64,000 bases of DNA from an uncultured Phycisphaeraceae bacterium (lineage in GTDB: Bacteria > Planctomycetota > Phycisphaerae > Phycisphaerales > UBA1924), in contig CAZSZO010000006.1 of assembly GCA_964611125.1 (NCBI GenBank), forward strand, positions 1 through 64,000, given 5' to 3'. Each line of letters begins with the position of its first letter. The stretch's first letter is position 1. A model generated the notes under the pieces. The model did not search any database and was not told the origin of the DNA. It was given only the letters and a program-made list of their open reading frames with translations. Made by a program: the position numbers and the translations under genes. Positions 15,105-52,733 of this stretch are shown here, piece by piece.

Positions 15105-17606
15105 TCAGCACCCGCCGAAGAACGCGGCGATGAAGTCCGACAGGTCATCAGGGTCGGCGTTCCCGTCGGCGTTGAAGTCCGCCTGCGGGCACGGGGGCGT
15201 CGCGAAGAAGCACCCGATGTAGTCCGACAGGTCGTCAGGGTCCACCACGCTGTCGGCGTTGAAGTCCGCCGGGCAGCCCACCGGCGGGCCGGCCTCGACC
15301 GTGATGACCACCGTGTCGGTCGCCGTCAGCCCGTTGTTGTCGGTCACCGTCAGCGTGAGGGTGTGGGGTCCCACCCCCAGCGGCACGAGCGCCGTGGCCG
15401 ACGGGCCGCTCGCCAGGGTCAGGGCGCCTTCAGTCCAGGCGTAGTTCGCGATCTGGCCATCGTCGGTGCTTGCCGACCCGTTCAGCGTCACCGGCTCCGA
15501 CCCCGAAAGATCGGTGTCGATCAGGATCTGGTCGGGCCCGGCGTTCGCCGTCGGCCGGGCGTTGACGGTGATCGTCACCGTGTCGGTTCCGGTGGCGCCG
15601 GCGCTGTCCGTGACCGTCAGGGTCACGGTGTGCGGTCCGGTCGTGAGGTTGACGATCGCCGAGCTCGCCGCGCCGTCGGCCAGCACCACGGGCCCTTCGG
15701 TCCAGCGGTAGTTCACGATCGTGCCGTCGGGGTCGGTGCTCGCCGAGCCATTGAGCGTCACCGGCTTGGATCCGGCGCCGTCGGCGTCATTGATCAGCTG
15801 GTCGCTGCCGGCGTTGGCGGAGGGCGCCACGTTGGCGGGCTGGGCCCGCAGGCCCGAGGTCGGCCCGGCGAAGTCGAAGGTAAACCCCTGCACCTGGGTC
15901 GCCGCGATCCAGTAGAAGTAGGCCTGCCCGGGCGCTGCGCCGGTGTCGTCAAACGTCACCGTTCCCGCCAGCAGCGCCGCCGGGGTGATCTGCGTCGCCG
16001 TCGCCCGGTCGTTGACGGTGTTGCGGAAGATCAGGTAGGTCCCGTTGGGCACGTTCGACCAGTTCAGCCGCACCTTGTCAGTGAACGTGCCGTTGCTCGC
16101 CGTAAGCACCAGCGTGTTGCCCGTGCTGAAGCTGATGCGGTACAGCTGGGACTCGGTGGGATTGTCCGACTCCGTCACGCGCAGGTACCCATCACCGGCG
16201 GGCATCAGGATCTGCGAGATCACCTCGTTGCTCCCCGCGGCGTTGACATCCTGGGTCACGATCGTGCTCAGGCCGTTGGCGGCCAGCAGCTGCAGCCGCA
16301 GGTTGGCTTCCGCCAGGGCGTTGTTCGCCGTGCCGGTGGTCTGGCATGATCCGTTGTTGTTCTGGTCAAGGTCCAGGTACGACGAGCCCACCGGCGTCAG
16401 TGTGGCCGACACCAGCAGCGGGCGGGTGAGGGTGAAGCGGTGCCAGTCCTGCTCGCCGTTGGCGTCGATGCTCAGCGTGCTGCCGTTGGTCACCGCGGGG
16501 CTCGGAAGCGTGCCCAAAGTGATCGCGCCCAAGGCGCCGAATGAACCGAAGAACGTCGCCGTTCCCGCGGTGTTGTCGGCTTCGTTGGGGTCGCCGTAGT
16601 TCCGCTGGCCGCCGCGGATGTCGTCCTGCTGGGGGCCGTCAAAGCCGGTGGCGAGGCTGGGCTCCATCAGCTTGGTGCCGTTGGACGGGCAGGTGTGGGC
16701 GAAACCCAGACCATGCCCGTGCTCGTGCATCACCGTGTTCCGCAGGAAGCGGTGGCTGTTGGTCGAGCTCCCCCAGCTCTCGCTGGAGTCGATGACCATG
16801 TCGCCGTCGTTGGGGAAGCTGTTGTACGCCAGCACGCCGTTGCCGCCGTCGAGCGACTTCATGCAGATCCGCACGTCGCCGCGCCGGCCCGCCACGCCCC
16901 CCGAGCCCCACGCCGCGCCGTCGTCCCAGTCATTGCCGCCAAAGGTGACCCGCTGGTAGTTGATCCCCGTCAACTGGCCCCACCGGTTGAAGCTCTCGGT
17001 GATCCGCTGGATCCACAGCGCCCGGTTACCCCCGAACTTGCTGTCCATCTGCGCAAACAGCGTGCTCGCCTGCGTCCCCTCGCCCACGCCGTTGCTGTTG
17101 ATGCTCAGCCCGTCGGGCACGAGCGACCACAGCAGCGTGATCGGCTCCCCAACGCCGCCCACGCTCGTGCCGTTGGTCGCCGTCTGCGTCCAGCGATCCG
17201 CCGCGTTGTACTGCGGCAGCAGTTGATAAAGCTGGCTCTCCAGGAACTGGATCACCTCGGGGCTCGGAGGCTCGTCAGCGCTGTAGCACGCCAGTACCGG
17301 CAGCGTCACCGCCGTGGCGTCGTTGGGCGCCTGCGGCAGCCACCGGCGCGGGGCCGACAGCATCTCGTCGATCTCTTCGCGCATCGTGCACGGGCGGTCC
17401 CCGCGCATCGCGGCCACATCACCCGGGGTGAACCGGGCCGTCCCGGTCAGCAGACTCTCTGTCACCGCCCGTGCGAGCATCCCGCTGGACCGCGCCGTCC
17501 CTTCGCCTGCCGGCCGGGGATCCACCGGGGCCTGAAAGCCCTGAGCCCCGGCGGCCAACGCCAAACCGATCGACGCGCACACAGCCAGCACCAGCTTGCT
17601 CCGCAT
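15105..17606 (-). CDS. Secreted metzincin-type zinc metalloprotease with 2 PKD-like repeats and a C-terminal double dockerin-like Cys module
   Basis: Start MRSKLVLAVCASIGLALAAGAQG gives a signal peptide, with GGAGG 8 nt upstream. The zinc motif is HEHGHGLGFAHTCP...KLMEP (HExxHxxGxxH). There are two roughly 93-aa repeats ending ...HT(V/L)TLTVTD..G.T.TDTV.ITV. The C-terminal tail is GCPADFNADSVVDPDDLSDYIGCFFATPPCPQADFNADGNADPDDLSDFIAAFFGGC. Confidence 0.75.
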   Translation of the reverse strand: MRSKLVLAVCASIGLALAAGAQGFQAPVDPRPAGEGTARSSGMLARAVTESLLTGTARFTPGDVAAMRGDRPCTMREEIDEMLSAPRRWLPQAPNDATAVTLPVLACYSADEPPSPEVIQFLESQLYQLLPQYNAADRWTQTATNGTSVGGVGEPITLLWSLVPDGLSINSNGVGEGTQASTLFAQMDSKFGGNRALWIQRITESFNRWGQLTGINYQRVTFGGNDWDDGAAWGSGGVAGRRGDVRICMKSLDGGNGVLAYNSFPNDGDMVIDSSESWGSSTNSHRFLRNTVMHEHGHGLGFAHTCPSNGTKLMEPSLATGFDGPQQDDIRGGQRNYGDPNEADNTAGTATFFGSFGALGAITLGTLPSPAVTNGSTLSIDANGEQDWHRFTLTRPLLVSATLTPVGSSYLDLDQNNNGSCQTTGTANNALAEANLRLQLLAANGLSTIVTQDVNAAGSNEVISQILMPAGDGYLRVTESDNPTESQLYRISFSTGNTLVLTASNGTFTDKVRLNWSNVPNGTYLIFRNTVNDRATATQITPAALLAGTVTFDDTGAAPGQAYFYWIAATQVQGFTFDFAGPTSGLRAQPANVAPSANAGSDQLINDADGAGSKPVTLNGSASTDPDGTIVNYRWTEGPVVLADGAASSAIVNLTTGPHTVTLTVTDSAGATGTDTVTITVNARPTANAGPDQILIDTDLSGSEPVTLNGSASTDDGQIANYAWTEGALTLASGPSATALVPLGVGPHTLTLTVTDNNGLTATDTVVITVEAGPPVGCPADFNADSVVDPDDLSDYIGCFFATPPCPQADFNADGNADPDDLSDFIAAFFGGC
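15279..15836 (-). repeat. Two tandem roughly 280-bp PKD-like coding repeats inside protease 1
   Basis: Repeated protein segments A.AG.DQ.I.D.D..GS.PVTLNGSASTD.DG.I.NY.WTEG...LA.G.S....V.L..GPHT.TLTVTD..G.T.TDTV.ITV. Confidence 0.6.
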
Positions 17607-17947
17607 GACGGATCCTCCAGATTGGGCAGATTCCCAAACCCCACACCCCGACCGACCCTGAGCCTCAGCAAACAACGCATTTCGCCCCGCGGCCGGCCAA
17701 GACCGGCCCAGCCGACACCGCCGCCGGCCGCGATGAAGTCGGGCCAGGCGGCACGCGTGTACCTCTTCGCCCCAGCCGTCGACAGGTTCCCGAGTGAACA
17801 GAAACCGGCCGCGCGGGCAGGCCGAGCGGACGAACGCACCACTCATTATGCGCTGAGATGGGGTTGGGGACACCGACTCGGGCATGATTCCAAGATCGAT
17901 CCGCAAATCGATCTCAAGACCGATAACCAAATCGTTCGAGCCTCGCC

Positions 17948-20791
17948 TCAGCACCCCGCAAAATAGGTGGTGATAAAGTCGGCAAGGTCATCAGGATCGG
18001 ACGTTCCATCGCCGCTGAAGTCGGCCTGGGGGCACGGGGGAATGCTGAAATAGCAGGTGATGAAGTCCGCCAGGTCATCAGGGTCGATGGACCCATCGCC
18101 GCTGAAATCAGCCCGGCAAAGGGGCGGCAGCGCGCTCACGGTCACCACCACCGTGTCGCTATCGGTCGCCCCCGTCGAGTCGGTCACCGTCAGGGTGATG
18201 GGGTGCGTGCCGACCGGGAGGCTCACCACCGGCTGCGCGGCGCCCGGCCCATTCGCGAGCACCGTGCCCACTCCCACCCCCGCGCCCTGAGTCCAGCGGA
18301 AGTTGGCGATTGGCCCCTCGGCATCCTGGCTGGCCGAGCCGTCGAGCGTCACGTCCTCAGCGCCGGAGCGATCGCTGTCGGTTACGGTCTGGTCGGGCCC
18401 CGCCCGCGCGATCGGCCGGGCGTTGACCGTGATCGCCACCTGATCGGTCCGGCTGAGCCCGTCAGCATCCGTGACCGTCAGCGTGATGGCGTGCGGGCCG
18501 ACGGCGAGATTGACGAGCGCGACGGCCGACGGGCCGCTGGCCAGCGTCGCCGCACCCTCACGCCACGCGTAGTTCACGATCGCGTTCTCCGGATCGCTGC
18601 TGGCGCCGCCGTTGAGCGTGACGGCCTCGCTCCCCGAGCGGTCGAGGTCGGTCACGACCTGGTCCGGGCCCGCCGCGGCGACGGGTGGGGCGTTGACGCG
18701 GACGATCAGCGTGTCCGCGCTGGTTCCGCCGCGGTTGTCGGTCACTGTCAGCGTGATGGTGTGCGAGCCGGTGGCGAGCTCGACTGACGCCAGCGGGCTG
18801 GGCCCGTTGGCCAGGGTCGTGGCGCCCTCGCTCCAGCGGTAGTTGACGATCGATCCGTCGGCGTCGGTGCTCGCCGCGCCGCTGAGATTCACGATCTCGC
18901 TTCCCGAGCCGTCAGTGTCATTGACGACTTGGTCGGCCCCCGCCCGGGCGACGGGGTTCACGTTCGCCGGCAGCCCGCGCGCGCCCGCGACCGGGCCGGC
19001 GAAGTCGTACTGCGTCCCGCCGATCTGGCTCGCCGCGACCCAGTAGAAATACGCCTGCCCCGGCACGGCGGAGAGGTCGTCAAGCTGCGCGCCCGTGACC
19101 GGGTTGAGGTTCAACTGGACCGCGTCGGCCCGCTCGGTGGAGGTGGAGCGGAACACAAAGTGCCCGGCCCCGGGGATCGCCGTCCAGTTCAGCCGGACCC
19201 GATCGGTGAACGTGCCGTTGCTGGCGGTCAGCGTCAGCGCCGGGCCCGCCCTCAGGGCCAGCTTGTACGACTGCGACCCCGCGGGCAGGTTGCTCGCCAC
19301 CACCCGCACCAGCGTGTTGCCGGCCGGGCGGAGCAGCGATGTCAGCGTCTCCGGCGCGCCCAGCCCCGCGGTATCGGTGTCGACGACAAAGCTCACGCCG
19401 TCGGGCTCGTACACCTCGATGGCCAGGTCGGCGATGCGCCGGCTGTCGATCGGGGCGGGCGGGCCCTCCTGGGGGCAGGAGCCATCGCCCGCCTGGTCAA
19501 GGTCGAGATACACCGAGCCCACCGGCGTCAGCGTCAGCGTGACCAGCAGCGGCTGCGTGAGCGTGAAGCGATGCCAGTCCTGCTGCGCGTTGCCCTCGAG
19601 GGCAAGCGTGCTCGCGCCGGCGACGGCCGGGGCCGGCAGATCGCCCAGGTTCGCCGCGCCTCCGGGGCCGAAGGAGCCGAAGAACTTGGCCGTCTGGGCG
19701 GTGTCGTCGTTCTCGTTGCGGTCGCCATAGTTCCGCTGACCGGCCCGGATGTCGTCCTCCTGCGGCCCGTCGTACGACAGCGAAAGGAACGGCTCCATCA
19801 GCTTGGTCGAATCATCCGGGCAGGTGTGCGCGAACCCCAGCCCGTGCCCATGCTCGTGGGACAGGATGTTCCGCATGAAGCGGTGATTCTGCTCCGGCTG
19901 GCCCCAGTCCTCCGCCGCGTCCAGAACCATGTCTCCCCCGTCGGGCGGGAAGCTGTTGTACGCCAGCACCCCGTCGACGCCGTCGAGGTTCTTCATCGCG
20001 ATCCGCACGTCGCCGCGCCGGAAGCGAACGCCCTGCTGGCCCCACGCGGCGCCGTCGTCCCAGTCATTGCCGCCGAAAGTCTCGCGGATGTACGTGTTCC
20101 CCGTCACCTGCCCCCAGCGGGCGAAGACCTCGCCGACCCGCTGCAGCCAGAGCGCGCGGTTCCCCCCGAACCGCGCGTCCATCTGCGCGAACAGTCGATT
20201 GGGCTGGGTCCCTTCCCCCACCCCATCGCTGGTGATGCTCAGCCCATCGGGCGCCAGCGACCACGTCAGCGTGATCGGATCCCCCGCAACGCCCACGCCC
20301 GACAGGTTCACCGCCGTGCGCGTCCACCGGCTGCTCACGTTGTACTGCGGCAGCAACTGGTACAGGTTCGATTCCACCCGCGCGATCACCTCCGGCGCCG
20401 GAGGACGCTCGCGCGAATAGCACAGCGCGATCGCCGGGTTCGACCCGCTGGGGTCGGTCGGCCCCGCTGGCAGCCACGGGCGCGGCGTCGCCAGCATCTC
20501 CTCGATCTCCTCGTGCACCGTGCACGGGCGGTTGCCCCGGGCCACAGCCCGGTCCGCCGGGGTCCACGCCCGCGGCCCTTCCCGCAGCGCCCGCACCACC
20601 ATCTGCGTCAGCAGGCCCGCTGAGCGGGCCCGCTCGCCCGGCTCCGACTCCGGCCCGGGCTCAGCCGCCGCCCGCGCGACGCCAGCGCCGAACCCCAGAC
20701 CCATTCCCTGTCCCAGATCGAGTTCCAGAACAAGCCCTGCCGCGAGTGCGTGCAGACAGACCTGCCAAAACGAGCGTGTGCGTGTGGGCAT
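17948..20791 (-). CDS. Secreted metzincin-type zinc metalloprotease, tandem paralog of protease 1, with 3 PKD-like repeats and the C-terminal dockerin-like Cys module
   Basis: The catalytic block is the same (FGGNDWDDGAAWG, HEHGHGLGFAHTCPDDSTKLMEP, GQRNYGD.NE.D.TA.TA.FFGSFG). The C-terminal tail is CRADFSGDGSIDPDDLADFITCYFSIPPCPQADFSGDGTSDPDDLADFITTYFAGC. The N-terminal boundary is uncertain. Confidence 0.75.
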   Translation of the reverse strand: MPTRTRSFWQVCLHALAAGLVLELDLGQGMGLGFGAGVARAAAEPGPESEPGERARSAGLLTQMVVRALREGPRAWTPADRAVARGNRPCTVHEEIEEMLATPRPWLPAGPTDPSGSNPAIALCYSRERPPAPEVIARVESNLYQLLPQYNVSSRWTRTAVNLSGVGVAGDPITLTWSLAPDGLSITSDGVGEGTQPNRLFAQMDARFGGNRALWLQRVGEVFARWGQVTGNTYIRETFGGNDWDDGAAWGQQGVRFRRGDVRIAMKNLDGVDGVLAYNSFPPDGGDMVLDAAEDWGQPEQNHRFMRNILSHEHGHGLGFAHTCPDDSTKLMEPFLSLSYDGPQEDDIRAGQRNYGDRNENDDTAQTAKFFGSFGPGGAANLGDLPAPAVAGASTLALEGNAQQDWHRFTLTQPLLVTLTLTPVGSVYLDLDQAGDGSCPQEGPPAPIDSRRIADLAIEVYEPDGVSFVVDTDTAGLGAPETLTSLLRPAGNTLVRVVASNLPAGSQSYKLALRAGPALTLTASNGTFTDRVRLNWTAIPGAGHFVFRSTSTERADAVQLNLNPVTGAQLDDLSAVPGQAYFYWVAASQIGGTQYDFAGPVAGARGLPANVNPVARAGADQVVNDTDGSGSEIVNLSGAASTDADGSIVNYRWSEGATTLANGPSPLASVELATGSHTITLTVTDNRGGTSADTLIVRVNAPPVAAAGPDQVVTDLDRSGSEAVTLNGGASSDPENAIVNYAWREGAATLASGPSAVALVNLAVGPHAITLTVTDADGLSRTDQVAITVNARPIARAGPDQTVTDSDRSGAEDVTLDGSASQDAEGPIANFRWTQGAGVGVGTVLANGPGAAQPVVSLPVGTHPITLTVTDSTGATDSDTVVVTVSALPPLCRADFSGDGSIDPDDLADFITCYFSIPPCPQADFSGDGTSDPDDLADFITTYFAGC
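18122..18958 (-). repeat. Three tandem PKD-like coding repeats inside protease 2
   Basis: Three roughly 93-aa segments ending ...GSHTITLTVTDNRGGTSADTLIVRVN, ...GPHAITLTVTDADGLSRTDQVAITVN, ...GTHPITLTVTDSTGATDSDTVVVTV. Confidence 0.6.
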
Positions 20792-21018
20792 GCAATCCTC
20801 CCGAGCAAGGCATGACAGCGCATCCGAGCGCTGCCCCCCGTGGATCGAGTTTCGGACTCAGCAGGCGTCAGCATACCCGAAATCGAACGCTCTCGCACGC
20901 CCTTTGTGCGGAATTGACAATCCTCAAGTTTGGGTGCCGGGGAGGTGGGCCCACCCGGGACGTCCCGCAGCCTGCCCAGCCCCCTCAACCCCCCTCAAAC
21001 CGCCCCCCACAAGCCGCC

Positions 21019-22296: not shown

Positions 22297-22505
22297 CCCT
22301 GGTTATCCCGCCGCGCAGCACGCGATCGCCCCTCAGGCTTTGCGCCGCCGGCGCCACCCCACCAGCGAGGCCAGCCAGGCTCATCGATTGCTCGCTCGGG
22401 CGGCCGCTGTATAGGACGCTTTCCCACGACGGGGCGTTTCGGACGCTGGGTTCACCGGTCGCTTGGACCGGTCCGCGGCCCGGCCAGCATCGCAGGGAGG
22501 GCGCC

Positions 22506-24772: not shown

Positions 24773-24852
24773 GACAAGGTCTTAACAAAGCACCCGCCGC
24801 CGGCGCCGGCCGATGCCGCGACAATCCCCCAGCGGAACTCGTTGCCATTAAG

Positions 24853-28197: not shown

Positions 28198-28428
28198 CCG
28201 CGCTCGACAACCCCCGAAGACCCCCGCAAACTGATGATTCAAGCCGACCCCACAGGCCTTAGCCCGCGGGGCCGAAAATTGAGGTGCCCGCCATTCGGCG
28301 GCTATTACTAGTAAGCGAAGTTCGCAGGGGGAACTGACTCGGATCGTTCAAACTTCTCCGAAAAAACGCAGAAGCCCGCAATCTGGTGGCATCTCTTTTG
28401 GCCTTCTAGGGCGGTTTCCGCATAGGGC

Positions 28429-32793: not shown

Positions 32794-32878
32794 TCGGCGG
32801 CGGGGGCGGACGGGGGGGGGCTGGTCGGGCAGATCGAAACGGGCATGCCTGGGTGTTTTCGCGTAGGCTCCAATCCCT

Positions 32879-34926: not shown

Positions 34927-37599
34927 CTACGGGCAGCCGGTGAAGTACGCGCCGATGCCGTCAGCCAGGTCGTCGGGGTTGATGACGCCGTCTTCGTTGA
35001 TGTCGGCCTCGCTGCACGGTTGCGGCTGAAAGAAGCAGGCGATGAGGTCGGCCAGGTCGTCAGGATCGAGGAAGCCGTCGATGTTGAAGTCACCCGGGCA
35101 GCACGAGCTGCGCACGCGGTTATCCACGAGCGACAGCGAGATCAGGTAGCCCGAATCGCCGGCGCCGCCGTCCACGACGGTGAGCAGCCACGAGCCGTCG
35201 AGCGGCTGCCCGGCGAAGTTGGTCAGGCTCTCCGCCGGCAGGCCGCCTGTCAGCGCCGCGGCGGGGCGGTACTCGCCCGGGGGCAGCGTCTGGCTGGTGC
35301 TGAGGCCCTGAGCCGCCGTCCACAGGTCGCCATCAGCGGTATCAGCGAAGGTGTATTCGCCTTCGAGGTTGGCGGGGGCGCCCGGCTCGCCCGGACCGGT
35401 GCGCAGCGGGCGGTTCAGCAGCACGCAGGTGGTGACGCCGTTGGAGAGCGTGACGGTCAGGTCGCCGGCCCAGGAGTGCTGCAACCCCAGGCGGACGCGC
35501 AACCCGCGCGGGCCGATGACGACCCCGGAGTTGCGGATGGTGAAGGGGAACCGCTCGTTGCTGAGGTCGGGGAGGACGTTGGGCAGGACGGGGATGCCGT
35601 TGTAGACCGTGGCGGTCGCCCGTTCGGAGAGAGCGCGGCAGGCGGTGCCGGCGCCGAGCCAGCGGCCGCCCTGAGCCTGGCACTGGGCTTCTGAGGTGAT
35701 GACGCAGGCGGTGTGGTCGCAGCAGGAGCCCAGGGCGGGCTGGAGGACGCTGATCCGGGCGGGGGCGGTGATCACGCCGCCGTCGCTCGAGCGCCCGGTG
35801 AGGGTGATGGTCTGGTCGCCGGGCGGGGTGAGGGGCGAGACGGTGAAGATGAGGCCGAAGATGCCGTCGCCGGCGGCCCCGTCGGCGCTCGCGCCGGAGT
35901 CGAGGAGCGGCGCCTGGGCCGGGCCGCCGACGGCCGCCAGATCGACCGTGAGGGTGGCCCCCGCCGGGGCGGGGCCGTCGCAGCGCGCGAAACGGGCGGT
36001 GAGCGTCATGGAGGCCCCTGGCAGGACCGGCGCACCCGGGGTGAGGGTGAGGTTCTCAAGGAGCAGGCCCGGCGCGGGGGCGGAGGCGGTGGTGCGCGGC
36101 GCGGCGGGGGCCAGCGTCCAGTCGGCGGCGTTGACGCCCGAGTCGATCCCGCCGTCGCAGCGGCGGAGGATGGCGCTGGGGGTGAAGCCGCCCCAGGGGG
36201 CGTTGTCGGCGGGGCCGCCGCCCTCGCGACAGTCGGACGTGCCGCCGCCGACGAGGTCGACGATGCGGTCGGCCGGGGTCGGACACGCGGCCGAGGGCGT
36301 CATCGGCGAGGCGACGATGGCGACCTTGCCGCCGCCGGGGATGAAGGGGCTGATGCCGGCGAAGGCGTCGGCGAGGGGTAGAGGACGGCCCTGGAGGAAT
36401 GGGGGGTCATTGAGCTGGATCAGGTAGTAGCCGCGGGGTTCGATCTGGCCGGAGAGGCTGACACGATCCCAGACGGGTGAGACGGGCGAGGCGAAGAGGA
36501 CGCCATAGCCGGCGAGGTCGACGGTTTCGTCGGAGGCGTTGTGGATCTCGACATAGTCGCTGTTGAAGGCCTCGGCGCTGGTGCCGCCGCCGGCGAAGAC
36601 CTGGCTGACGCGCAACGGTTTGAGCGGCGGCAGCAGGGCGAAGCCCACGGCCTTGGCGTCGGTGCGGCCGCTGGCGTCGCGGGAGGTGACCACCAGGTCG
36701 TAGAGGGCGGGCGGGGCGGCGCCGGCGGTGAGCCGCGCGGAAAAGACCCGGTCCCCGGCGGTCTGGTCGCCATCCTGGCCGTCATCGCGCAGAGCGACCT
36801 GGAAGGGGCCCCCGACGGGCGAAGCGTCGGCGGTGACGGTGACGGCGCCGCTCACGCACGGGGCGATGCGGGCGGTGAGCAGGAAGGTCTGGCCCGCGGG
36901 CGCGGCGGCGGGCGTCACGGTCACCGAGGTGATCTCCGGCGTCGCGACGGGCGGGGGCGAGCCGCTCGAGCGGGGGAGGGCCGGGTCGTAGGGGACGAGT
37001 TCAAAATCGGCCAGGTTCGAGTTGGTGTCGAGCTCGCCGGCGCAGACCCGCACGAGCACGCGGCAGGGCGGCCCGGCGCCGGGTGCGGGTGCGGGCGCGC
37101 CCTCGGCGGCGCTGGCGGCGCCGTAGCCCAGAAAGTCACGCAGGAACGGGCCGGAGGCGCCGATCCGCGGGTCTGAGCCGGTGATGGTGGTCTGGGAGGC
37201 GAGCAGCGCGACCTTGCCGCTGGATGAGAACAGCGGGCTGGCGGCGAAGACCAGATCGGGAAGCGCGTCGGGCAGGACGCCGACGGCGAGCGGCCGCTCG
37301 CACTGGATCAGGAAATAGCCGTGGGGTTGGATGACGGTCCCCGACGGGAAGGGCAGGACCGTCCACGCGGCGCCCGAGCCGGGCGCGAGCTGGAGCGACC
37401 AGCCGGAGACATCGGCGGGCGTGGCGGCGGTGTTGTGCAGCTCGACAAAGTCGAAGCTGGGGCACGAGGCGTTGAGCCCCCCGGCGCCGCAGACCTGGCT
37501 GATGCGGACATCGGCCCGGGCTGGCGCCGGGCCGGCGGGTGAGAACAGCAGAACGGACAGGCCGACCGGCGCGGCGATGAGCGCGGGGCGAAACAGCAT
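34927..37599 (-). CDS. Secreted protein with two lamin-tail-domain (LTD)-like modules, a proprotein-convertase P-domain-like module and the C-terminal double dockerin-like Cys module
   Basis: Signal peptide MLFRPALIAAPVGLSVLLFSPAGPAPARA. The LTD signatures are RISQVCGAGG...FDFVELHNTAATPADVSGWSL and RVSQVFAGGG...DYVEIHNASDETVDLAGYGV. The P-domain-like segment is FTIRNSGVVIGPRGLRVRLGLQHSWAGDLTVTLSNGVTTCVLLNRP. The C-terminal tail is CCPGDFNIDGFLDPDDLADLIACFFQPQPCSEADINEDGVINPDDLADGIGAYFTGCP. Confidence 0.7.
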   Translation of the reverse strand: MLFRPALIAAPVGLSVLLFSPAGPAPARADVRISQVCGAGGLNASCPSFDFVELHNTAATPADVSGWSLQLAPGSGAAWTVLPFPSGTVIQPHGYFLIQCERPLAVGVLPDALPDLVFAASPLFSSSGKVALLASQTTITGSDPRIGASGPFLRDFLGYGAASAAEGAPAPAPGAGPPCRVLVRVCAGELDTNSNLADFELVPYDPALPRSSGSPPPVATPEITSVTVTPAAAPAGQTFLLTARIAPCVSGAVTVTADASPVGGPFQVALRDDGQDGDQTAGDRVFSARLTAGAAPPALYDLVVTSRDASGRTDAKAVGFALLPPLKPLRVSQVFAGGGTSAEAFNSDYVEIHNASDETVDLAGYGVLFASPVSPVWDRVSLSGQIEPRGYYLIQLNDPPFLQGRPLPLADAFAGISPFIPGGGKVAIVASPMTPSAACPTPADRIVDLVGGGTSDCREGGGPADNAPWGGFTPSAILRRCDGGIDSGVNAADWTLAPAAPRTTASAPAPGLLLENLTLTPGAPVLPGASMTLTARFARCDGPAPAGATLTVDLAAVGGPAQAPLLDSGASADGAAGDGIFGLIFTVSPLTPPGDQTITLTGRSSDGGVITAPARISVLQPALGSCCDHTACVITSEAQCQAQGGRWLGAGTACRALSERATATVYNGIPVLPNVLPDLSNERFPFTIRNSGVVIGPRGLRVRLGLQHSWAGDLTVTLSNGVTTCVLLNRPLRTGPGEPGAPANLEGEYTFADTADGDLWTAAQGLSTSQTLPPGEYRPAAALTGGLPAESLTNFAGQPLDGSWLLTVVDGGAGDSGYLISLSLVDNRVRSSCCPGDFNIDGFLDPDDLADLIACFFQPQPCSEADINEDGVINPDDLADGIGAYFTGCP

Positions 37600-37743: not shown

Positions 37744-39651
37744 TCAGCGGCAGCCGGCGAAGTAGTCGCCGATGTAGTCGGAGAGGTCGTCGGGGTCGGA
37801 AACGCCGTCACCGTTGTAGTCGGCCCGGGTGCACTGCGAGAAGTAGCAGCCGATGTAGTCGGACAAGTCGTCGGGGTCGAGGTTGCCGTCGCTGTTGAAA
37901 TCGGCGCCGCAGGGCGGCGCGGACCGCAGGCGGTAGGCGCCGTTCTGGTTGAGCTGGGTGGGCTGGAAGGGTGGCGGGAAGTAGCGGGCCTGGAAGGCAT
38001 TGGGCTCCACTGGGCCGGCGTTGACGTTCGAGAGGGCCACCAGCACGTCGGCCGCGGGACCGTCGGTGACGGCGACCACGGAGATCCAGTAGGTCCCGGG
38101 GAGGAGGTTCCGCGTGCCGGTGAAGCCCAGGCCCGTGCCCAGGTCGAAGGCGACCAGGTCGAAGCCCGGGTAGCGCTGGTCGCTGTAGAACGGCCGACCG
38201 CAACTGGGCCCGGCGAACTCCTCGAAATAAAGCGTGCCGGTGGGGACGTTCGCGGCGTCCTGGGCGGTGGGGTAGATGTTCACACGCCAGCGGATCGGGG
38301 GGAGGGGGCCGGTGTTGCGGACCAGGGCCTCGACGCGTCCGAGGAGCGTGGGGAGGCTGATCCCCTGCGTGCCGTTGATCTCGAAGTCATCATCGCAGGC
38401 GAAGGAGGCGTCGGCGAGCAGGCAGCCCTGGCAGTCGGTGGACTGCGAGATGGTCTGCCCGGTCTGGGCGCCGGGGTCGATCTGGTCGAAGAGGACCTCC
38501 CCCCGCGGGGTGCACAGGGGCGTGGGGCCGTTCGGGCAGGCGTTGTGCTCGGGGAAGGGAACGAAGCGGAGGGTGCGGGCCCCGGCGCCGAGCGAGGGGC
38601 CGGGGACCTGGAGGGCCTGGCTGCCGGCGGGGTTCTCGATGCCGACGGTGACCCCGGTCCCGACCGGAGCGACGATGGAGGCGTAGCGGCACTCGATGGC
38701 GCCGCCTTCGAACAGGACGATCTGGAATGTGTTGGAGTCATTGCCTTCGAAGCGGGGCACGGCGGTCCACTGGATGATCAGGCGGAGGTTGGCGCCGGGC
38801 TGGCCCCGGAGCTGGGCGTGGATGGTCCCCTGGAAGCTGACGTCGAGGTCGGTCCAGTAGGCGTAGATCGCCCCGTTGGGCTGGGCCGCGGTGGGGAGGA
38901 CGGGGTCGTTGATCGGCGATGCGATCGGGCCCCCGAAGTTCACAAAGCCGTTGGTGGAGACGTTGACGGTGTTGAACGAGCCGCTATAGAACGCGAATGG
39001 GAAGCCGATGGGAATGGTCGTGCTGCCGTCGTCGCGATCGGGAATGAACTGCGGGTTGAGCAGCAGACCGGTGGGGGCGATGTTCTCAAAGTTCTGCGGC
39101 TGGGTGAGCACGCTGTACCCGGCGGGTGAGAAGCACGCCACGCCGTTGCCCAGATAGACGCCGCCCAGGGACTGGCAGTCGGATGGGGTGAGCTGCTGGC
39201 AGCCGCCGCCGATGCCCGAGAGGCAGCAGGCGCCGACGCCGGAGACGACCGTCAGGGTGATCTCGCCGGGGGAGACGCGGCCTTGCGCATCGCGCACCAG
39301 GAAGGGCAGGATCGCCGGCCCGGTGGGGGCGCTGGTGGGCATGGTGATGCGGGCGGAAAAGATGAGGTCTCCGGCGACGGCATCGGGGGGGAGCCCATTG
39401 TCGACGAGCACCACGGGGCCGATGGTCAGGCTTGCGGCGTCAACCGTCACGGCGAGGCCCGTGCTCAGCGGACCCTGCCCGGGGGTCACGACCACCCGCA
39501 GAACGGTGGTATCGACCCCGTCGTTGGCGACCGTGGCGGGTGAGGCCATGCCGACGCCCGTGGGCGGCGTCGCGAGAGCGCTGCTGACGAAGCGAGCGGG
39601 GGCGAAGGTGAGCACGATCAGAGCGAGCACAGCCAGGCGAATCGAGGTCAT
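37744..39651 (-). CDS. Secreted hypothetical protein with the C-terminal double dockerin-like Cys module
   Basis: Start MTSIRLAVLALIVLTFAPARFVSSALA gives a signal peptide, with GGAG upstream. The body is Cys-containing and beta-rich with no recognisable catalytic motif. The C-terminal tail is CGADFNSDGNLDPDDLSDYIGCYFSQCTRADYNGDGVSDPDDLSDYIGDYFAGCR. Confidence 0.6.
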   Translation of the reverse strand: MTSIRLAVLALIVLTFAPARFVSSALATPPTGVGMASPATVANDGVDTTVLRVVVTPGQGPLSTGLAVTVDAASLTIGPVVLVDNGLPPDAVAGDLIFSARITMPTSAPTGPAILPFLVRDAQGRVSPGEITLTVVSGVGACCLSGIGGGCQQLTPSDCQSLGGVYLGNGVACFSPAGYSVLTQPQNFENIAPTGLLLNPQFIPDRDDGSTTIPIGFPFAFYSGSFNTVNVSTNGFVNFGGPIASPINDPVLPTAAQPNGAIYAYWTDLDVSFQGTIHAQLRGQPGANLRLIIQWTAVPRFEGNDSNTFQIVLFEGGAIECRYASIVAPVGTGVTVGIENPAGSQALQVPGPSLGAGARTLRFVPFPEHNACPNGPTPLCTPRGEVLFDQIDPGAQTGQTISQSTDCQGCLLADASFACDDDFEINGTQGISLPTLLGRVEALVRNTGPLPPIRWRVNIYPTAQDAANVPTGTLYFEEFAGPSCGRPFYSDQRYPGFDLVAFDLGTGLGFTGTRNLLPGTYWISVVAVTDGPAADVLVALSNVNAGPVEPNAFQARYFPPPFQPTQLNQNGAYRLRSAPPCGADFNSDGNLDPDDLSDYIGCYFSQCTRADYNGDGVSDPDDLSDYIGDYFAGCR

Positions 39652-40002
39652 GACAAGGCTCCAGCGGGGGACCCATCTCCCAGCGCGGGGGTCCAAACGG
39701 GAAACGAACAGGGTGAACCAATGCTGAACGGCCTCGTTCGCGGAGGGGGAACCGTTCACTGTACCTCAGCGCGGGCGGATGCACCAGTCTAATTGGGGGA
39801 GGAGGGTGAGGATTGAACTTCGAGACCACCCCCCGCCGCCCGTGCCACCGACCGTGGCTTGGCACGGTCGGTGCTCCCGGCCTGTTGACGGCGCGCCAAG
39901 AGCACCGACCGCCCTCCGGCGGTCGGTGGCGCGGCGGTACGGGTGGCCGGCTGGAACGGGTGGCACAGCCGGTTCGGCATCGTGGTTCCGTACACTCCGG
40001 CC

Positions 40003-41244: not shown

Positions 41245-41270
41245 GAGTTTCGCAGGCCCGCGCGGCGCGG

Positions 41271-43948: not shown

Positions 43949-43993
43949 GGCAGGCGAAGGAATCGATCACCTCCTGCCAATCTGGCGCCGGCG

Positions 43994-45241
43994 TCAGTCA
44001 GCACATCGCTCGAAGTACGCGACGATGAAGTCGCTGAGGTCATCGGGATCGATGACTCCGTCGTGATTGAAATCGATCCGGGCGCTCTCGCCCGGCGAGA
44101 AATAGGCGTCGACGAAGTCGGCCAGGTCATCGGGGTTCAGGACCCCGTCGAGGTTGAAGTCGGCCGGGCAGTCTGCGGCGCGCACGGCGGCCTGCGCCGC
44201 GTCGCGGAGCAGGTACAGCAGCGGCTGGACGTTGCCGGAGGCCGAAAGGTCGGTGGCGAAGACACCCACAAGGCGGTCGTCGAAATCGATCCACGAACTG
44301 AAGCCGCGGGCCCCCGCGGCGATGGCCCCGAGCAGCTCACCGTTCGGCCCCCGCTGGTCGAGCCATATGCCCACGCCGTAATCGGCGTTCTCGCTGAGGA
44401 TCGGGCTGTTGTTGACGGGGATGTTGGTCGCGGTCTGGCGGGTGAGCAGTGTGCGCACGGCGGCCTCGGAGAGAACGCGGGTTCCTTGGTGCACGCCGCC
44501 ACGGCGCAGCATCTCCATGAATCGGCCGAACTCATCGCCGGTGCTCTCGGCGCCCCCGGCGATGCGGGGGTTCTGGGGACTGGAGAGGGTGTATCGGGTC
44601 TGAGTGAAGCCCAGCGGGCCGGCGATGCGCTGCTGGAACATCGTGTTCCACGGGGCCCCCCCGGCGACCTCCGCCGCGGCGCCCGCGGCGTGCATGGAGA
44701 CCCCGCCGTAGGAGAACACCATTCCGGGGGAGAAACGGAGCGGCGCCTGGGCGATCTGCGCAGCGGCCTGGCGCAGCGTGATCGATTCGTCGCCCACGGC
44801 GGTCGAGTTGCCGAACATCCCGGCGGTGTGCGAGAAGCACTGAGCGATGGTGATGACCGACTTGGCCCCCGTGTACTCAGGGAGATACTGGCTCAGGCGG
44901 GTCTGAAGCGTGAAGGGGTTGGGGCTGGAGTCGACCAGCGACATGATCAGGGCGCCGGAGAGGGTCTTGGTCGCCGAGTCGGCGTTGGCGAGACGGCCGG
45001 TCGACCAGGCGCCGAACGAGCGGTGGTAGACCTCGACGCCGTCGCGCAGCAGGATGAGCTCGAAGCCGGGAACGGGGGTGTCGACGTTCTGACCAATCAC
45101 GGCGCCCTCCGCCAGCGCCGTCACGACTGAAAAGTCGGGCGTCGCCGATTGCGCGTGAACGCCGGCCGATGGGACCGCCGCACCAGCAGAGGCGACGAGG
45201 GCGAACACGCGGACTCCGCTCGGGAGGGACGGGCGCGGCAT
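43994..45241 (-). CDS. Beta-lactamase-family serine hydrolase (class C / PBP-like) with the C-terminal double dockerin-like Cys module
   Basis: Signal peptide MPRPSLPSGVRVFALVASAGAAVPSAGVHA, then SATK (SxxK) in ADSATKTLSGA. The C-terminal tail is DCPADFNLDGVLNPDDLADFVDAYFSPGESARIDFNHDGVIDPDDLSDFIVAYFERCAD. Confidence 0.7.
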   Translation of the reverse strand: MPRPSLPSGVRVFALVASAGAAVPSAGVHAQSATPDFSVVTALAEGAVIGQNVDTPVPGFELILLRDGVEVYHRSFGAWSTGRLANADSATKTLSGALIMSLVDSSPNPFTLQTRLSQYLPEYTGAKSVITIAQCFSHTAGMFGNSTAVGDESITLRQAAAQIAQAPLRFSPGMVFSYGGVSMHAAGAAAEVAGGAPWNTMFQQRIAGPLGFTQTRYTLSSPQNPRIAGGAESTGDEFGRFMEMLRRGGVHQGTRVLSEAAVRTLLTRQTATNIPVNNSPILSENADYGVGIWLDQRGPNGELLGAIAAGARGFSSWIDFDDRLVGVFATDLSASGNVQPLLYLLRDAAQAAVRAADCPADFNLDGVLNPDDLADFVDAYFSPGESARIDFNHDGVIDPDDLSDFIVAYFERCAD

Positions 45242-45455
45242 GGGGCGTCTCCGGTCGATTTGGGGAGGGGGCTGGGCGAAGCGAAGGCAACCAGCGGGAA
45301 CGGCCCAGACTCAACGACGGGCTGGCGGCGATATTGCCGGCGCCGATGGAAAACTCGGCCGGATGGGCCCGCGAAGCTGGTCGAGCGACAACGCCCGGCC
45401 GGGGCCGGGCGCTGGTCGCGCGCGAGATCGTGCGGGGGTTGTGGCGTTGGCCAGG

Positions 45456-47305
45456 TCAGCAGGCCTGGCTGAAGAACGCCGTGATGAAATCGCTCAGGTC
45501 GTCGGGGTCCACGGCGTGGTCGCCGTTGAGGTCGGCCTGGGGGCAGGGCGGCGATGCGAAGTAGCACTCGATGTAGGTGGCCAGGTCGTCAGGGTCGATC
45601 CGGCCGCTGCTGTCGAAGTCGGCGAGGCAGACCGAGACGGCCCACGCCTCCTCGCCGCTGACGCCGGCCTCGGCGCCGAAGAGGACGAGGTTGCCGATGA
45701 AGCCGCCGCGGGCGAAGGTCTCGTTGAGCAGGCTGCCGGCGGCGCCGGGGGCGATATCGGTGAGCAGTCGGGCGGGGCGAGCCCCGTCGGTGACGTAGAG
45801 CTCGCGCCCGAATGCGGGGGTCTCGCCAGTGAAGAGGACACGATCGCCGACGGCGGTGACGCGCTGGATATTGGGGTCTGACGGGCCGGGATACAGATCG
45901 CTCAGTCGGAAGGCCTGATCGAGCCCGCCGTCATAGGACCAGAGCTCGAAGCCGGTCGATTCCTCGTACCGGGTGAAGACCGCCCGCGCGCCCAGCGCGG
46001 CGACTGTCGTCTGGGGCAATGAGCTGAACCCGTTGGGCCGGCGGATCGGGGAGAGCACGCTGCGGGTGGTGTCGCCCAGGAGCAGCAGCAGGCGGTCGTT
46101 GGTGAGGTCGCGCAGGAAGCAGGCTTCGCCGGAGGCCCCGGACCCGCCCGAGAGCCCCGTGCCGATCTGCCGGATGGCGCCGGTGGCCAGATCGACGGCC
46201 CGGAGGGTGTCGACGCTGGCGGAGGTGGAGCGCGAACGCAGGAAGAGATGGGTGCTCGTCGCGCCCAGGAACGCCGCGAGGGGCGGGAGGGAGGAAACCT
46301 GCGTGACGGTGTCGGCGGGGCCTTCGATGCGCAGGAGGTTGGCGGCCGAGATGCCCAGCTCGAGGAAGTACACAGCCGAGCCTGTGGCGAGGAACTGGCG
46401 ATCGGTGATGCCCGCGGCGTCGCGGAGCGAGCGTGTCCCGGCGGCGGTTCCGTCGGTGCGGTAGAGGCGGTAGTTGGACGTCGGGAAGCCAACAGCGGTG
46501 AAGTAGGCCACGCCGCCACGGCTTGCGAGCCCGCCGCGAAGGGTGAAGCCGCTCGTCCCCGTCACGAGCTGGGTCCCCGGGCCGGAGCCATCGGTGATGT
46601 AGAGGCCGGAGACGGCGGGATCGCCCAGCGAGCCTCCGAAGACGACGCGGCCGTCAGCGAGCTGGGCGAAGGCCGGGGCGCGGGAGGGCGTCGCCACCCG
46701 CACGGGCGAGATGACCGACGAGCCGGCGGGCGTGCCAGGGTTGTGCCCGCCGGGGTGCCGTCGGTGGCGAGTAGCGGGGCCGTGCAGGGGCCGCAACTGG
46801 TCAGCGAGATGAGCACCACGGCCCGGCCCTCATCGAGCGGGGCCAGATACGCGGCTCTGATGGCGCCGTTGACCGTCTGCAGCAGGTCGCGCTCGCCTGT
46901 GGCCAGATCGACCGACCAGAGCTGGTCGGCGCGGGAGGTCGAGCCGGAAACGACCAGCGCCCGACCGTTCACGACGCCGTACATCACCGGGGTGACGGTG
47001 GCGTCGGAGAGCACGGCGAGCAGGCGAGCGCCTGAGCCGTCCAGCCCGCTGGTGAAGAGCGCGAAATCCTCCAGGCCGACATTCGCCAGGAAGACGACGC
47101 CGTCGCCGCCAGCGAAGAAGTTCGTCGGCGCGGCCGACCGGGGAGCGCCCGCAGAGCCGCCGCCCGGGAAATCTCCGAGTCGGACGGGCATCTGGGCCGC
47201 CGCCGGGCGGCACGTGAGTGCGAGCAGGACCGAGAGCGCGGCGACCAAGATGCTGCCAGCGCGCCGGAGCGAACCGGCGCCACGGATGGGACGTTGGGCG
47301 AGCAT
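45456..47305 (-). pseudogene. ELWxxDGT-repeat beta-propeller-like secreted protein with the C-terminal double dockerin-like Cys module, split by an apparent frameshift near 46730-46800
   Basis: ORF 46562-47305 has signal peptide MLAQRP...ILVAALSVLLALTCRPAAAQ and the repeat ...LLATDGTPAGT. ORF 45456-46796 continues the same repeat family in another frame (GLYITDGSG, LYRTDGTAAGT, GFELWSYDGG, GRELYVTDGARPARLLTDIAPGAAGS). It ends with CLADFDSSGRIDPDDLATYIECYFASPPCPQADLNGDHAVDPDDLSDFITAFFSQAC. The frames switch in a G/C-rich run, so this could be an authentic pseudogene or a sequencing indel. Confidence 0.55.
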
Positions 47306-47404
47306 GACGGATCTCCTGCCCCGGCTCCCGGGCGAGATCCCGAAGAGCCGGCGGACAAGAAGGAGTCGTTGCTCGCCGCCCGCCTGTGAGCGGAGACCGG
47401 AATC

Positions 47405-49372: not shown

Positions 49373-49701
49373 GGGCTGGTTCCTTTGTAACGGGCGCATG
49401 GGGCCCAGGCAGGATGGACGAACTGAGAACGACCGCAAGCCCCGCGGCGCAAAAGCACCACAAGGCCGCTGGCACGCGGCTTGCCGGACGAACCGGCGGA
49501 GAGGGAGTATCGCCCCCCCAACTGCGTTTGGCAAGAGAGGGGGACGGGGGATTTCGTGAGGGGCATGTGGGGGGAAGTGCGATGTTGCGCGCGCATCAGC
49601 GGTTCGGGATTCGTTTTGTTGTCCACACGCGGGTCACAACCGGCCGATCGTCTGCGGCCAGCCCGCGATCCCTCTGGGCGGCTCGGTTATGATCGACGAC
49701 C

Positions 49702-50907
49702 ATGAAGGTTGTCTGCGAACGTCAAGCGCTCCTGGCCGCGGTGAACAACGTCGCCTCGGTTGTTCCCATCCGCACCCCCAGCCCCGCCCTCTCCTGCCTG
49801 AAGATCGTGGCCACCAAGACCGGCGGGGTGGGCGAGATGCACCTCTCCGGCACCGACGCCGAGACGTCGCTGCAACTCTCCTTCTCTCAGGTCGATGTCG
49901 CCCAGCCTGGGTCGGCGGTGGTTCCGGCTGACAAGCTGCGGCAGATCGTGCAGGCGATGGAGAGCGCCAGCACCATCACCATCGAGGCCGAGGGCGATGT
50001 CTGCCACATCAAGAGCGAAGGGGCCAAGTTCAAGATCTTCGCCTATCCGAGCGACCAGTTCCCGGCGATCGCGGACTTTGCGACCATCGCGGCGGGCGGC
50101 CCCGGTGTGCGGAGCGTCTTCACCCACAACGCCGGGTCGCTGCTGACGCTCATCAGCCGGACGGTCTTCGCGACGGCGCGGGAGACCAGCCGGTACGCCA
50201 TCAATGGCGTATTGCTGAAGCGCGACGGCAAGAAGCTCGAGATGGTCGCCACCGACGGGCGACGCCTGGCCCTGTGCCGGGCGAGCATCAAGAGCACGCC
50301 CGGCGCCGCGGGCGTCGGCGAATCGGGGCCGACGTCGTGCATCATCCCGACCAAGGCGCTCAACCTGTTTACGCGCCTCGCGAGCAATCCCGAGGAGAAC
50401 GTGCGGATCGCCATCACCGACAACCGGGTCTTCCTGGCCTTTGAGGATGTGGTTGAGGAGAAGGGCAAGACGCCGCGGGCCCGGGCGGTGCTGTCGAGCA
50501 CGCTGGTCGAGGGCGCCTTCCCGCCGTATGAAGAGGTCATTCCCAAGGACCAGGACAAGAAAGTGACCGCGGGGCGCGACGAGCTGATCGCGGCGGTGCG
50601 CGAGGCTTCGATCCTCACCAACGAGGAGTCGCGCGGGGTGCGGATGGCCTTCAGCGGCAAGAAGAAGCAGCTCCGCCTGACCAGCCGGGCGCCGGAGATG
50701 GGTGAGAGCGAGATCGATGTCGGGCTGGCCGGCTACGAGGGTGAGGACGTCGAGATCTCGTTCAACCCGCAGTTCCTCGCCGATGCGCTCAAGACGATCG
50801 ATGAAAACGAGGTCATCATCGAGCTGAAGGCCGCCAACAAGCCCGGCGTGCTGCGCAGCGGCGCGGACTTCGTCTATGTCGTGATGCCGGTGAACCTGCC
50901 CACCTGA
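49702..50907 (+). CDS. dnaN: DNA polymerase III beta subunit (sliding clamp)
   Basis: MKVVCERQALLAAVNNVASVV..., a three-domain length of about 400 aa, and internal blocks RYAINGVLL and ATDGRRLA typical of DnaN. Confidence 0.85.
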   Translation: MKVVCERQALLAAVNNVASVVPIRTPSPALSCLKIVATKTGGVGEMHLSGTDAETSLQLSFSQVDVAQPGSAVVPADKLRQIVQAMESASTITIEAEGDVCHIKSEGAKFKIFAYPSDQFPAIADFATIAAGGPGVRSVFTHNAGSLLTLISRTVFATARETSRYAINGVLLKRDGKKLEMVATDGRRLALCRASIKSTPGAAGVGESGPTSCIIPTKALNLFTRLASNPEENVRIAITDNRVFLAFEDVVEEKGKTPRARAVLSSTLVEGAFPPYEEVIPKDQDKKVTAGRDELIAAVREASILTNEESRGVRMAFSGKKKQLRLTSRAPEMGESEIDVGLAGYEGEDVEISFNPQFLADALKTIDENEVIIELKAANKPGVLRSGADFVYVVMPVNLPT

Positions 50908-50993
50908 CGCGGGCGGCGATCGTCCCGCCGCACTCAGTTGCAAACACCCTGACCAACGCGCACCCCCCACCCACCCTGTCGCGGAGTTCCCTC

Positions 50994-51563
50994 ATGGCCA
51001 AGAAGAAGACCGCACGCAAGCCCGCCAAGCCCTCGTCATCCGCCGCGAAGAAGCCCGTCAAGCAGGTGGCCAGGTCCGCCGCCGCCAAGGCGCCCGCAAA
51101 GCCCGCTCGGGGCCCCGCGAAGAAGGTCGTCAAGGCGGCGGGGCCGACCCGCGGCCCGCGTCCGGTGAACACGGGCAAGGGGGCCACCGCGCTGGAGCTG
51201 GGCGCGGGGCTGGTGAAGTACTTCAATCAGGGCGAGGGCGACGCGTGGGTCGGCGGCGTGTGGTCAAAGGACATCGTCTCCTGCGAGGGGCTGGGCGTGA
51301 ACATGGAGTTCGCCGGGCTGCAGGCGGTTGAGGAGAAGAACGCCCAATGGCACGCCGATCACGAGGTGCTGGGCGGCTCGGCGGAGGGGCCGTATGTGGG
51401 CTCAACGGGCTTTTCGGTCAAGTTCAGCATGCACGTGAAGCAGAAGTCGTCGGGGCAGGAAATCCGCATGGAGGAGATCGGCGTGTACACCGTGCGCGAT
51501 GGCAAGATCGTGCGCGAGGAGTTCATGTACAGCGCGATCGCGCCCGCCGGCTCGAATGGCTGA
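50994..51563 (+). CDS. Protein with a histone-H1-like Lys/Ala-rich N-terminal tail fused to an NTF2/SnoaL-like domain
   Basis: The N-terminal 60 aa are MAKKKTARKPAKPSSSAAKKPVKQVARSAAAKAPAKPARGPAKKVVKAAGPTRG. The C-terminal roughly 120 aa (...GVNMEFAGLQAVEEKNAQWHADHEVL...VKFSMHVKQKSSGQEIRMEEIGVYTVRDGKIVREEFMY) has an NTF2-like alpha+beta pattern. Confidence 0.55.
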   Translation: MAKKKTARKPAKPSSSAAKKPVKQVARSAAAKAPAKPARGPAKKVVKAAGPTRGPRPVNTGKGATALELGAGLVKYFNQGEGDAWVGGVWSKDIVSCEGLGVNMEFAGLQAVEEKNAQWHADHEVLGGSAEGPYVGSTGFSVKFSMHVKQKSSGQEIRMEEIGVYTVRDGKIVREEFMYSAIAPAGSNG

Positions 51564-51599
51564 GCGGTGGACTGGGGCCCCGCGCCGGCGCCGCCGGGC

Positions 51600-52733
51600 T
51601 CAGGCCCGGCAGCCGGTGAAATAGGCGCCGATGTAGTCGCTGAGGTCATCGGGATCGATGGCGCCCGAGCCGTCGAAATCGGCGCCTGCGCACTGGTCGA
51701 AGTAGCAGGCGATGTAATCGCTCAGATCATCGGGATCGACCACACCATCGCCGCTGAAGTCGGTCTCGCAGCCCGCGCGCCCGAGCGCGGCGTTGAACAT
51801 GTACGTCCACACCGGGGCGAAGACCGGCGCGCCCGACTCGTCGAGCGGGGTGTTGCGATCGACCACCACGCTCCCGTGGTATTGCCCGGGCGTGGCCGGC
51901 TCGGCGAGGGTCGTGAGCTGGTGGCTGAGGCGGTAGGGCGGCCGGGCGAGGTCAACGTTGCGGATCGGGCCCAGGGCCGAGACGCCCATCACCCCGCAGG
52001 TGCGGATCGTGGTGGGGAAGAGGTTGTCCTGCGCGTGCGTGAAGTCGACCCGGATCGTCGCCCCCGAGACCGAAGGGCGGGAGTACCACTCGGCGAGCTG
52101 GCCGTTGTCCTGAACGTCGCCGGGGCCGCCGAACATGAGGGCGCCGGCCAGGGGGAAGTCGTAGGAGAGGTACGCCGCGTGCCCGGCGCCCTGGGAGTGA
52201 CCGCCGACGACGATGCGGCTCCAGTTGAGCCCGGCCCCGTCGAGGTACTGGCGCCAGCCCTCGCTGGGGAACTGCTCGTCGAGGTGGCGGAGGAGCGCGA
52301 TCAGGCGCCCGCGGACGCTGTTGGCCGGGTTGACGTCCACCAGGGGCGAGTCATCAACGCCGTAGAGCCGCTCGCGCCGGATTTGTCCGTGCACGTCAGG
52401 GTCGGGCGAACCGTTGGAGAGTTGGTCAACGGAGGGGCAGTTGGGGTAGCTCAGGGTGACGACATGGAAGCCGAGCCCCGCCGCGTGGCGTGAGATGAGC
52501 TCGCTGCTCTGGGGGGCGCCGCAGCTGCCCGGGAGATGGACGTAGAGCAGGCGCTGCGAGGGGATCTGGCGATCGATTGCGGCCAGGTGCACATCGAGCG
52601 GTGCGGTGACGCGCGGGTTGGTCAGCAAAGGGTTGATTTCGCGGAGCGCCACGTCGGCCGGGGCGGATGAGGCGGACGAGGCGATCGCGAAACCAACGAA
52701 CGCAAGAACGGTCGGGCGGGTGAAACGCAGCAT
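51600..52733 (-). CDS. Secreted alpha/beta-hydrolase (esterase/lipase-like) with the C-terminal double dockerin-like Cys module
   Basis: Signal peptide MLRFTRPTVLAFVGFAIASSASSAPA and the nucleophile elbow VVGGHSQGAG (GxSxG). The C-terminal tail is CETDFSGDGVVDPDDLSDYIACYFDQCAGADFDGSGAIDPDDLSDYIGAYFTGCRA. Confidence 0.7.
   Translation of the reverse strand: MLRFTRPTVLAFVGFAIASSASSAPADVALREINPLLTNPRVTAPLDVHLAAIDRQIPSQRLLYVHLPGSCGAPQSSELISRHAAGLGFHVVTLSYPNCPSVDQLSNGSPDPDVHGQIRRERLYGVDDSPLVDVNPANSVRGRLIALLRHLDEQFPSEGWRQYLDGAGLNWSRIVVGGHSQGAGHAAYLSYDFPLAGALMFGGPGDVQDNGQLAEWYSRPSVSGATIRVDFTHAQDNLFPTTIRTCGVMGVSALGPIRNVDLARPPYRLSHQLTTLAEPATPGQYHGSVVVDRNTPLDESGAPVFAPVWTYMFNAALGRAGCETDFSGDGVVDPDDLSDYIACYFDQCAGADFDGSGAIDPDDLSDYIGAYFTGCRA

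What the first reader, a model, noticed from the sequence alone, without database searches (positions are those of the whole stretch)
15105..52733. Seven secreted proteins share an extreme C-terminal, four-cysteine double dockerin/EF-hand-like module: a candidate undescribed anchoring or sorting tag system
Seven minus-strand genes within 37 kb carry this tail. They are protease 1 (15105-17606), protease 2 (17948-20791), the LTD/P-domain protein (34927-37599), a 635-aa secreted protein (37744-39651), a beta-lactamase-family hydrolase (43994-45241), the ELWxxDGT-repeat protein (45456-47305) and an alpha/beta hydrolase (51600-52733). Each ends 0-3 residues before the stop with the same module of about 55 aa, with consensus C-x-A-D-F-N-x-D-G-x-(V/I)-D-P-D-D-L-(S/A)-D-(Y/F)-I-x-C-(Y/F)-F-x-x-P-P-C-P-Q-A-D-F-N-x-D-G-x-x-D-P-D-D-L-S-D-(F/Y)-I-x-A-(Y/F)-F-x-G-C. 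Each half has a canonical 12-residue calcium loop (D1, N3, D5, D9, D12) followed by a helix, which is the dockerin type I or EF-hand-pair architecture. Four invariant Cys (before loop 1, in helix 1, in the PPCP linker and at the extreme end) suggest two disulfides, which classical dockerins lack. The catalytic or adhesive N-terminal domains are unrelated to each other, and all have signal peptides. One module is therefore grafted onto a diverse secretome. That pattern fits a sorting or anchoring tag (compare cohesin-dockerin, T9SS CTD, PEP-CTERM), implying a cognate receptor or scaffold elsewhere in the genome. The nucleotide sequences of the modules have diverged, so this is not recent duplication; the protein motif is under selection.
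Basis: partly seen in the sequence, partly recalled or inferred. Interest (0 to 1): 0.88.

Follow-up and report, generated by a model that had tools for sequence, protein, structure and literature searches.

The report
Disulfide-clasped dockerin tails in a Phycisphaerales secretome
Seven exported enzymes and adhesin-like proteins of a Phycisphaerales (Planctomycetota) bacterium end in the same small calcium-binding, dockerin-like module; it is a divergent branch of a tail that NCBI already lists as the "GC-type dockerin" anchor, and nobody has found what that tail binds.

Summary
Exactly seven minus-strand genes in the window end in a 55-58 aa module made of two calcium-loop-plus-helix repeats, and the nucleotide sequences have diverged. 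Two details need correcting. One tail (43994-45241) lacks two of the four Cys. The ELW gene is split by a frameshift that recurs in independent assemblies.

The module is not undescribed. All seven tails align end to end with NCBIfam NF041540, "GC-type dockerin domain-anchored protein", but score 17.5-26.9 bits against a cutoff of 29. They also fall below the Pfam Dockerin_1 threshold. Sequence profile, AlphaFold model and fold searches all point to a dockerin fold.

New here:
- This is a distinct DPDDL(S/A)D(Y/F)I subtype.
- Cys co-variation across 238 tails supports two disulfides, C1-C4 (a covalent version of the dockerin terminal clasp) and an optional C2-C3.
- A related Phycisphaeraceae genome assembled from a metagenome carries at least about 90 such tails.
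- The tail profile matches 5,627 protein clusters in public data.
- Relatives of one tail-carrying protein end instead in T9SS, SLH or MYXO-CTERM tags.

The most likely function is calcium-dependent, non-covalent surface anchoring to a shared receptor. No cohesin or other partner was found. Interest is moderate.

The parts
15105..17606 (-). M10 (matrixin) metalloprotease with PKD domains, 833 aa, signal peptide; tail module at 15105-15275, CPADF...FFGGC*
   Evidence: NF041540 26.5 bits
17948..20791 (-). Second M10 metalloprotease with PKD domains, 947 aa; tail module at 17948-18118, CRADF...YFAGC*
   Evidence: NF041540 26.7 bits; used as the AlphaFold target
34927..37599 (-). Lamin-tail-domain (LTD) / choice-of-anchor X / P-domain protein, 890 aa; tail module at 34927-35100
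   Evidence: NF041540 17.5 bits; Pfam Dockerin_1 20.9 bits; passenger homologues carry other anchors
37744..39651 (-). 635-aa exported protein of unknown function (faint NIDO and choice-of-anchor X hits); tail module at 37744-37911, short QC linker
   Evidence: NF041540 26.9 bits
43994..45241 (-). Beta-lactamase-fold serine hydrolase, 415 aa; tail module at 43994-44170, the two-Cys form (Cys 2 and Cys 3 replaced by A and S)
   Evidence: NF041540 24.5 bits
45456..46796 (-). ELWxxDGT-repeat protein, C-terminal piece carrying the tail (module 45456-45629); separated by a frameshift from its N-terminal piece
   Evidence: NF041540 25.8 bits
46562..47305 (-). N-terminal 247-aa piece of the ELW gene with the signal peptide, in another reading frame; frameshift near 46713-46747
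   Evidence: the same 247+369 aa split in 9 independent contigs
51600..52733 (-). BPSS1187-family alpha/beta hydrolase, 377 aa; tail module at 51600-51770, short QC linker
   Evidence: NF041540 23.8 bits

Best explanation
The tail is a divergent subtype of the GC-type dockerin. It is a C-terminal domain of about 56 aa made of two tandem F-hand repeats, each a 12-residue Ca2+ loop followed by a helix. A disulfide between a Cys just before loop 1 and the terminal Cys closes the domain. In about two thirds of copies a second disulfide links helix 1 to the linker.

Proposed mechanism, with the status of each step:
1. The proteins are exported by their Sec signal peptides (inferred from N-terminal sequence).
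2. The tail folds, binds Ca2+ and oxidises in the periplasm or outside the cell (inferred).
3. The tail docks non-covalently onto one shared cell-surface receptor, either cohesin-like or of another kind. This displays about a hundred different hydrolases, proteases and adhesin-like proteins on the cell (inferred by analogy).

Shown: the module, its position, the dockerin-like sequence and fold, the Cys co-variation, the expansion into many paralogues, and the interchangeability with known anchors. Inferred: calcium binding, disulfide formation, and docking to a receptor.

Both repeats carry the same near-invariant DPDDL(S/A)D(Y/F)I face. This suggests a single binding specificity and possibly a dual, symmetric binding mode as in type I dockerins (inferred).
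For: Dockerin identity:
- NF041540 dockerin_GC matches all seven tails over the full profile, 1-67/67 for six and 1-65/67 for the ELW tail.
- The tail profile's best PDB hits are dockerins. The top hit is 2y3n_B at E=7.6e-4 over the whole module, followed by 6kge, 6kgc, 2jnk and 5lxv.
- The same profile cross-hits proteins with 9-18 Pfam Dockerin_1 repeats.
- The AlphaFold model has pLDDT 87.8 with a core above 94. Helices start at loop position 10 and no helix precedes either loop, which is the F-hand arrangement.

Disulfides:
- Among 238 tails the patterns are CCCC 152, C--C 66, -CCC 6, ---- 5, ---C 4, -CC- 3, CC-C 1 and C--- 1.
- Cys 2 and Cys 3 are therefore kept or lost together with a single exception, and Cys 1 and Cys 4 mostly go together.
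- Contact between the two termini, the 'intramolecular clasp', is a general dockerin feature (PMC3821032).

Tag behaviour:
- 218 of 225 relatives end within 9 residues of the module.
- 49 different Pfam families occur in 85 carriers.
- About 94 distinct tails occur in one Phycisphaeraceae metagenome-assembled genome (MAG).
- Signal-peptide-like N-termini occur in 86% of carriers against 8% of controls.
- Homologues of the LTD passenger end in a T9SS C-terminal domain (CTD), SLH, MYXO-CTERM or the other GC-dockerin form.
- The NCBIfam choice-of-anchor X domain is present in the LTD protein.
- Positions 10-13, 15-17 and 20-21 are at least 95% conserved in both repeats.
Against: - No cohesin (PF00963) or other candidate receptor was found in any window gene.
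- No gene family recurs next to tail genes across 78 loci.
- All seven tails are below the curated cutoffs of both NF041540 and Pfam Dockerin_1.
- Fold-search scores are weak in absolute terms because the domain is tiny.
- Calcium binding, disulfides and localisation have not been tested.
Confidence: 0.6

Rival explanations
1. The tail is an export or sorting signal. A folded C-terminal domain would be recognised by an outer-membrane translocation or attachment machine and perhaps removed afterwards, as with the T9SS C-terminal domain. On this view it is not a permanent docking module.
For: The module sits at the extreme C-terminus with 0-2 residues after the last Cys in 228 of 229 tails that have one. 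Homologous passengers elsewhere carry T9SS C-terminal domains or MYXO-CTERM. GBD_T9SS_assoc domains occur in 6 of 85 carriers.
Against: The fold is that of a protein-docking module. There is no transmembrane segment or cleavage motif. No dedicated machinery gene recurs near tail genes. SLH, a non-covalent anchor, is also among the interchangeable tails.
Confidence: 0.2
2. The tail anchors proteins to a non-protein envelope component such as a polysaccharide, lipopolysaccharide or peptidoglycan, with Ca2+ as a bridge. No cohesin-like protein would be involved.
For: No cohesin was detected in the sequence available. Each repeat has extra invariant acidic residues at positions 11 and 15, beyond those that hold Ca2+. 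These could bridge cations to anionic polymers, which is an inference.
Against: All structurally characterised relatives bind proteins. The sequence searched is only a small part of the genome.
Confidence: 0.12
3. The tail is only a calcium-dependent stabilising or regulatory domain, like an EF-hand pair, and has no partner.
For: There are weak, sub-threshold EF-hand hits on the loop regions.
Against: No helix precedes either loop in the model. The same module is attached to at least 49 unrelated domain families, always at the C-terminus, about 90 times in one genome. Its slot is occupied by known anchors in homologues.
Confidence: 0.05
4. The terminal Cys serves covalent attachment, either an intermolecular disulfide or a lipid or thioester linkage to a surface component.
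For: The Cys is the last or next-to-last residue in 220 of 229 tails that have one.
Against: The terminal Cys co-varies with the Cys before loop 1: both present in 219 tails, both absent in 8, discordant in 11. This fits an intramolecular clasp at the position where dockerin termini meet (PMC3821032).
Confidence: 0.03

Closest known systems
NCBIfam NF041540, 'GC-type dockerin domain-anchored protein' (dockerin_GC)
   Same: A two-repeat dockerin-like module at the extreme C-terminus, with a Cys before loop 1 and a terminal Gly-Cys. All seven window tails align across essentially the whole 67-position profile. The module is attached to diverse exported proteins of Planctomycetota.
   Different: The window tails score 17.5-26.9 bits against a cutoff of 29. 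The form that passes, at 34-44 bits, has helices of the type xDIFxFLxAWFAGC and only two Cys. The form here has DPDDL(S/A)D(Y/F)I helices, a linker that is mostly 6 residues long, and usually a second Cys pair. No 'DIF' type tail was seen in the window or in 480 kb of the sister genome. I found no publication on the model, and its descriptive text could not be read here.
Type I dockerins of cellulosomes and non-cellulosomal dockerins (Pfam PF00404; e.g. 2y3n_B, 2vn6_B, 2ozn_B)
   Same: Two tandem F-hand Ca2+ loop-helix repeats with internal two-fold symmetry, at the C-terminus of exported enzymes. They are the best sequence and fold matches. Contact between the termini is a general dockerin feature.
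   Different: The tails are below the Pfam threshold, 6.9-20.9 bits against 22.9 where Dockerin_1 is listed; it is not listed at all for the hydrolase at 51600-52733. The clasp is covalent (disulfides). Positions 10-11, which vary and set specificity in classical dockerins (my own knowledge), are an invariant Pro-Asp here. No cohesin is known. The cargo is proteases, esterases and adhesin-like proteins rather than cellulases.
'Planctosome' hypothesis for Nemodlikiaceae, Phycisphaerae (Andrei et al. 2019, PMC6461901)
   Same: The same bacterial class. The idea is cohesin-dockerin tethering of peptidases, with LTD and proprotein-convertase P-domain proteins taking part. The window has tailed M10 proteases and a tailed LTD/P-domain protein, next to oligopeptide transporters and peptidases.
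   Different: That model rests on classical cohesin and dockerin hits from dbCAN and InterPro, 0-6 dockerins in the genomes visible in the part of the table I read. In it the LTD protein carries a cohesin. Here the LTD protein carries the dockerin-like tail, classical models miss the tails, and there are about 90 per genome.
C-terminal sorting or anchoring tags: T9SS C-terminal domain, MYXO-CTERM or PEP-CTERM, SLH
   Same: One C-terminal module on a large, diverse exported protein set. It occupies the same slot in homologues of the LTD passenger.
   Different: The tail has no beta-sandwich fold, no transmembrane helix with a basic cluster and no SLH repeats. No processing enzyme or translocon has been identified.

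Membership tests
NCBIfam NF041540 GC-type dockerin | HMM score at or above the curated cutoff of 29 bits | tested here: not met
   The seven window tails score 17.5-26.9 bits, although six align over 1-67/67 and the ELW tail over 1-65/67. Sister tails in a related MAG score 13-36.6 bits and two of ten pass. The DIFxFL form scores 34-44 bits.
NCBIfam NF041540 GC-type dockerin | Domain at the extreme C-terminus, ending in Gly-Cys | tested here: met
   In all seven, 0-2 residues follow the last Cys. G-C is present in 5 of 7, and the other two have R-C and A-C. Among tails with a terminal Cys, it is last in 125, next to last in 95, followed by two residues in 8 and by seven in 1.
Dockerin type I (Pfam PF00404) | Pfam gathering score of 22.9 bits | tested here: not met
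   Scores are 6.9-20.9 bits for six tails, and Dockerin_1 is not listed for the seventh. Only 2 of 85 relatives hit at E<1e-4.
Dockerin type I (Pfam PF00404) | Two tandem F-hand repeats: a 12-residue Ca2+ loop (D1, N/D3, D5, D/N9, D12) followed by a helix, with no preceding helix | tested here: met
   Loop residues are conserved in both repeats. The AlphaFold model has helices at 29-40 and 58-70, each starting at loop position 10, and nothing helical before the loops.
Dockerin type I (Pfam PF00404) | Fold similar to solved dockerins | tested here: met
Dockerin type I (Pfam PF00404) | A cognate cohesin module encoded in the same genome | tested here: inconclusive
   No cohesin hit in any window gene, and no recurrent neighbour in 78 loci. 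Only 64 kb of this genome was available, so absence cannot be claimed.
Dockerin type I (Pfam PF00404) | Ca2+-dependent folding and binding | not testable with these tools
   This needs ITC, CD or NMR on the purified tail.
EF-hand pair | Helix-loop-helix with an entering helix; Pfam EF-hand thresholds | tested here: not met
   Only sub-threshold hits, restricted to the loop and the exiting helix. The model has no entering helix.
T9SS C-terminal domain / PEP-CTERM / MYXO-CTERM sorting signals | Beta-sandwich C-terminal domain (PF18962), or a motif plus a transmembrane helix plus a basic cluster | tested here: not met
   No such Pfam or NCBIfam hit on the tails. The tails are helical, acidic and have no hydrophobic span. 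A PEP-CTERM-like tail does exist on another window protein, 60430-62934.

The most novel reading that the evidence does not exclude
The DPDDL-type, doubly disulfide-bonded tail could define a separate surface-display system of Phycisphaerales. About a hundred cargo proteins per genome, many of them proteases and esterases, would be docked onto a receptor that is not a recognisable cohesin. This would be a working, much larger version of the hypothesised 'planctosome', with a binding specificity different from the 'DIFxFL' GC-type dockerins.
Probability: 0.25. Interest if true: 0.7.

Novelty: new variant of a known kind. Interest (0 to 1): 0.42.

Why it matters
Planctomycetota are abundant degraders of polymers, and how they hold enzymes on their surface is poorly understood. 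A tag carried by roughly 2-3% of a genome's proteins, yet missed by the Pfam and dbCAN dockerin models and by the NCBIfam cutoff, means current annotation leaves a large surface-protein set without a name. The likely disulfide pairing and the conserved binding face give concrete handles for finding the receptor. A very small, disulfide-stabilised, calcium-switchable docking pair could also be useful for building designer enzyme assemblies. The idea itself is not new: NCBI curators already treat this domain as an anchor, and a dockerin-based "planctosome" has been proposed.

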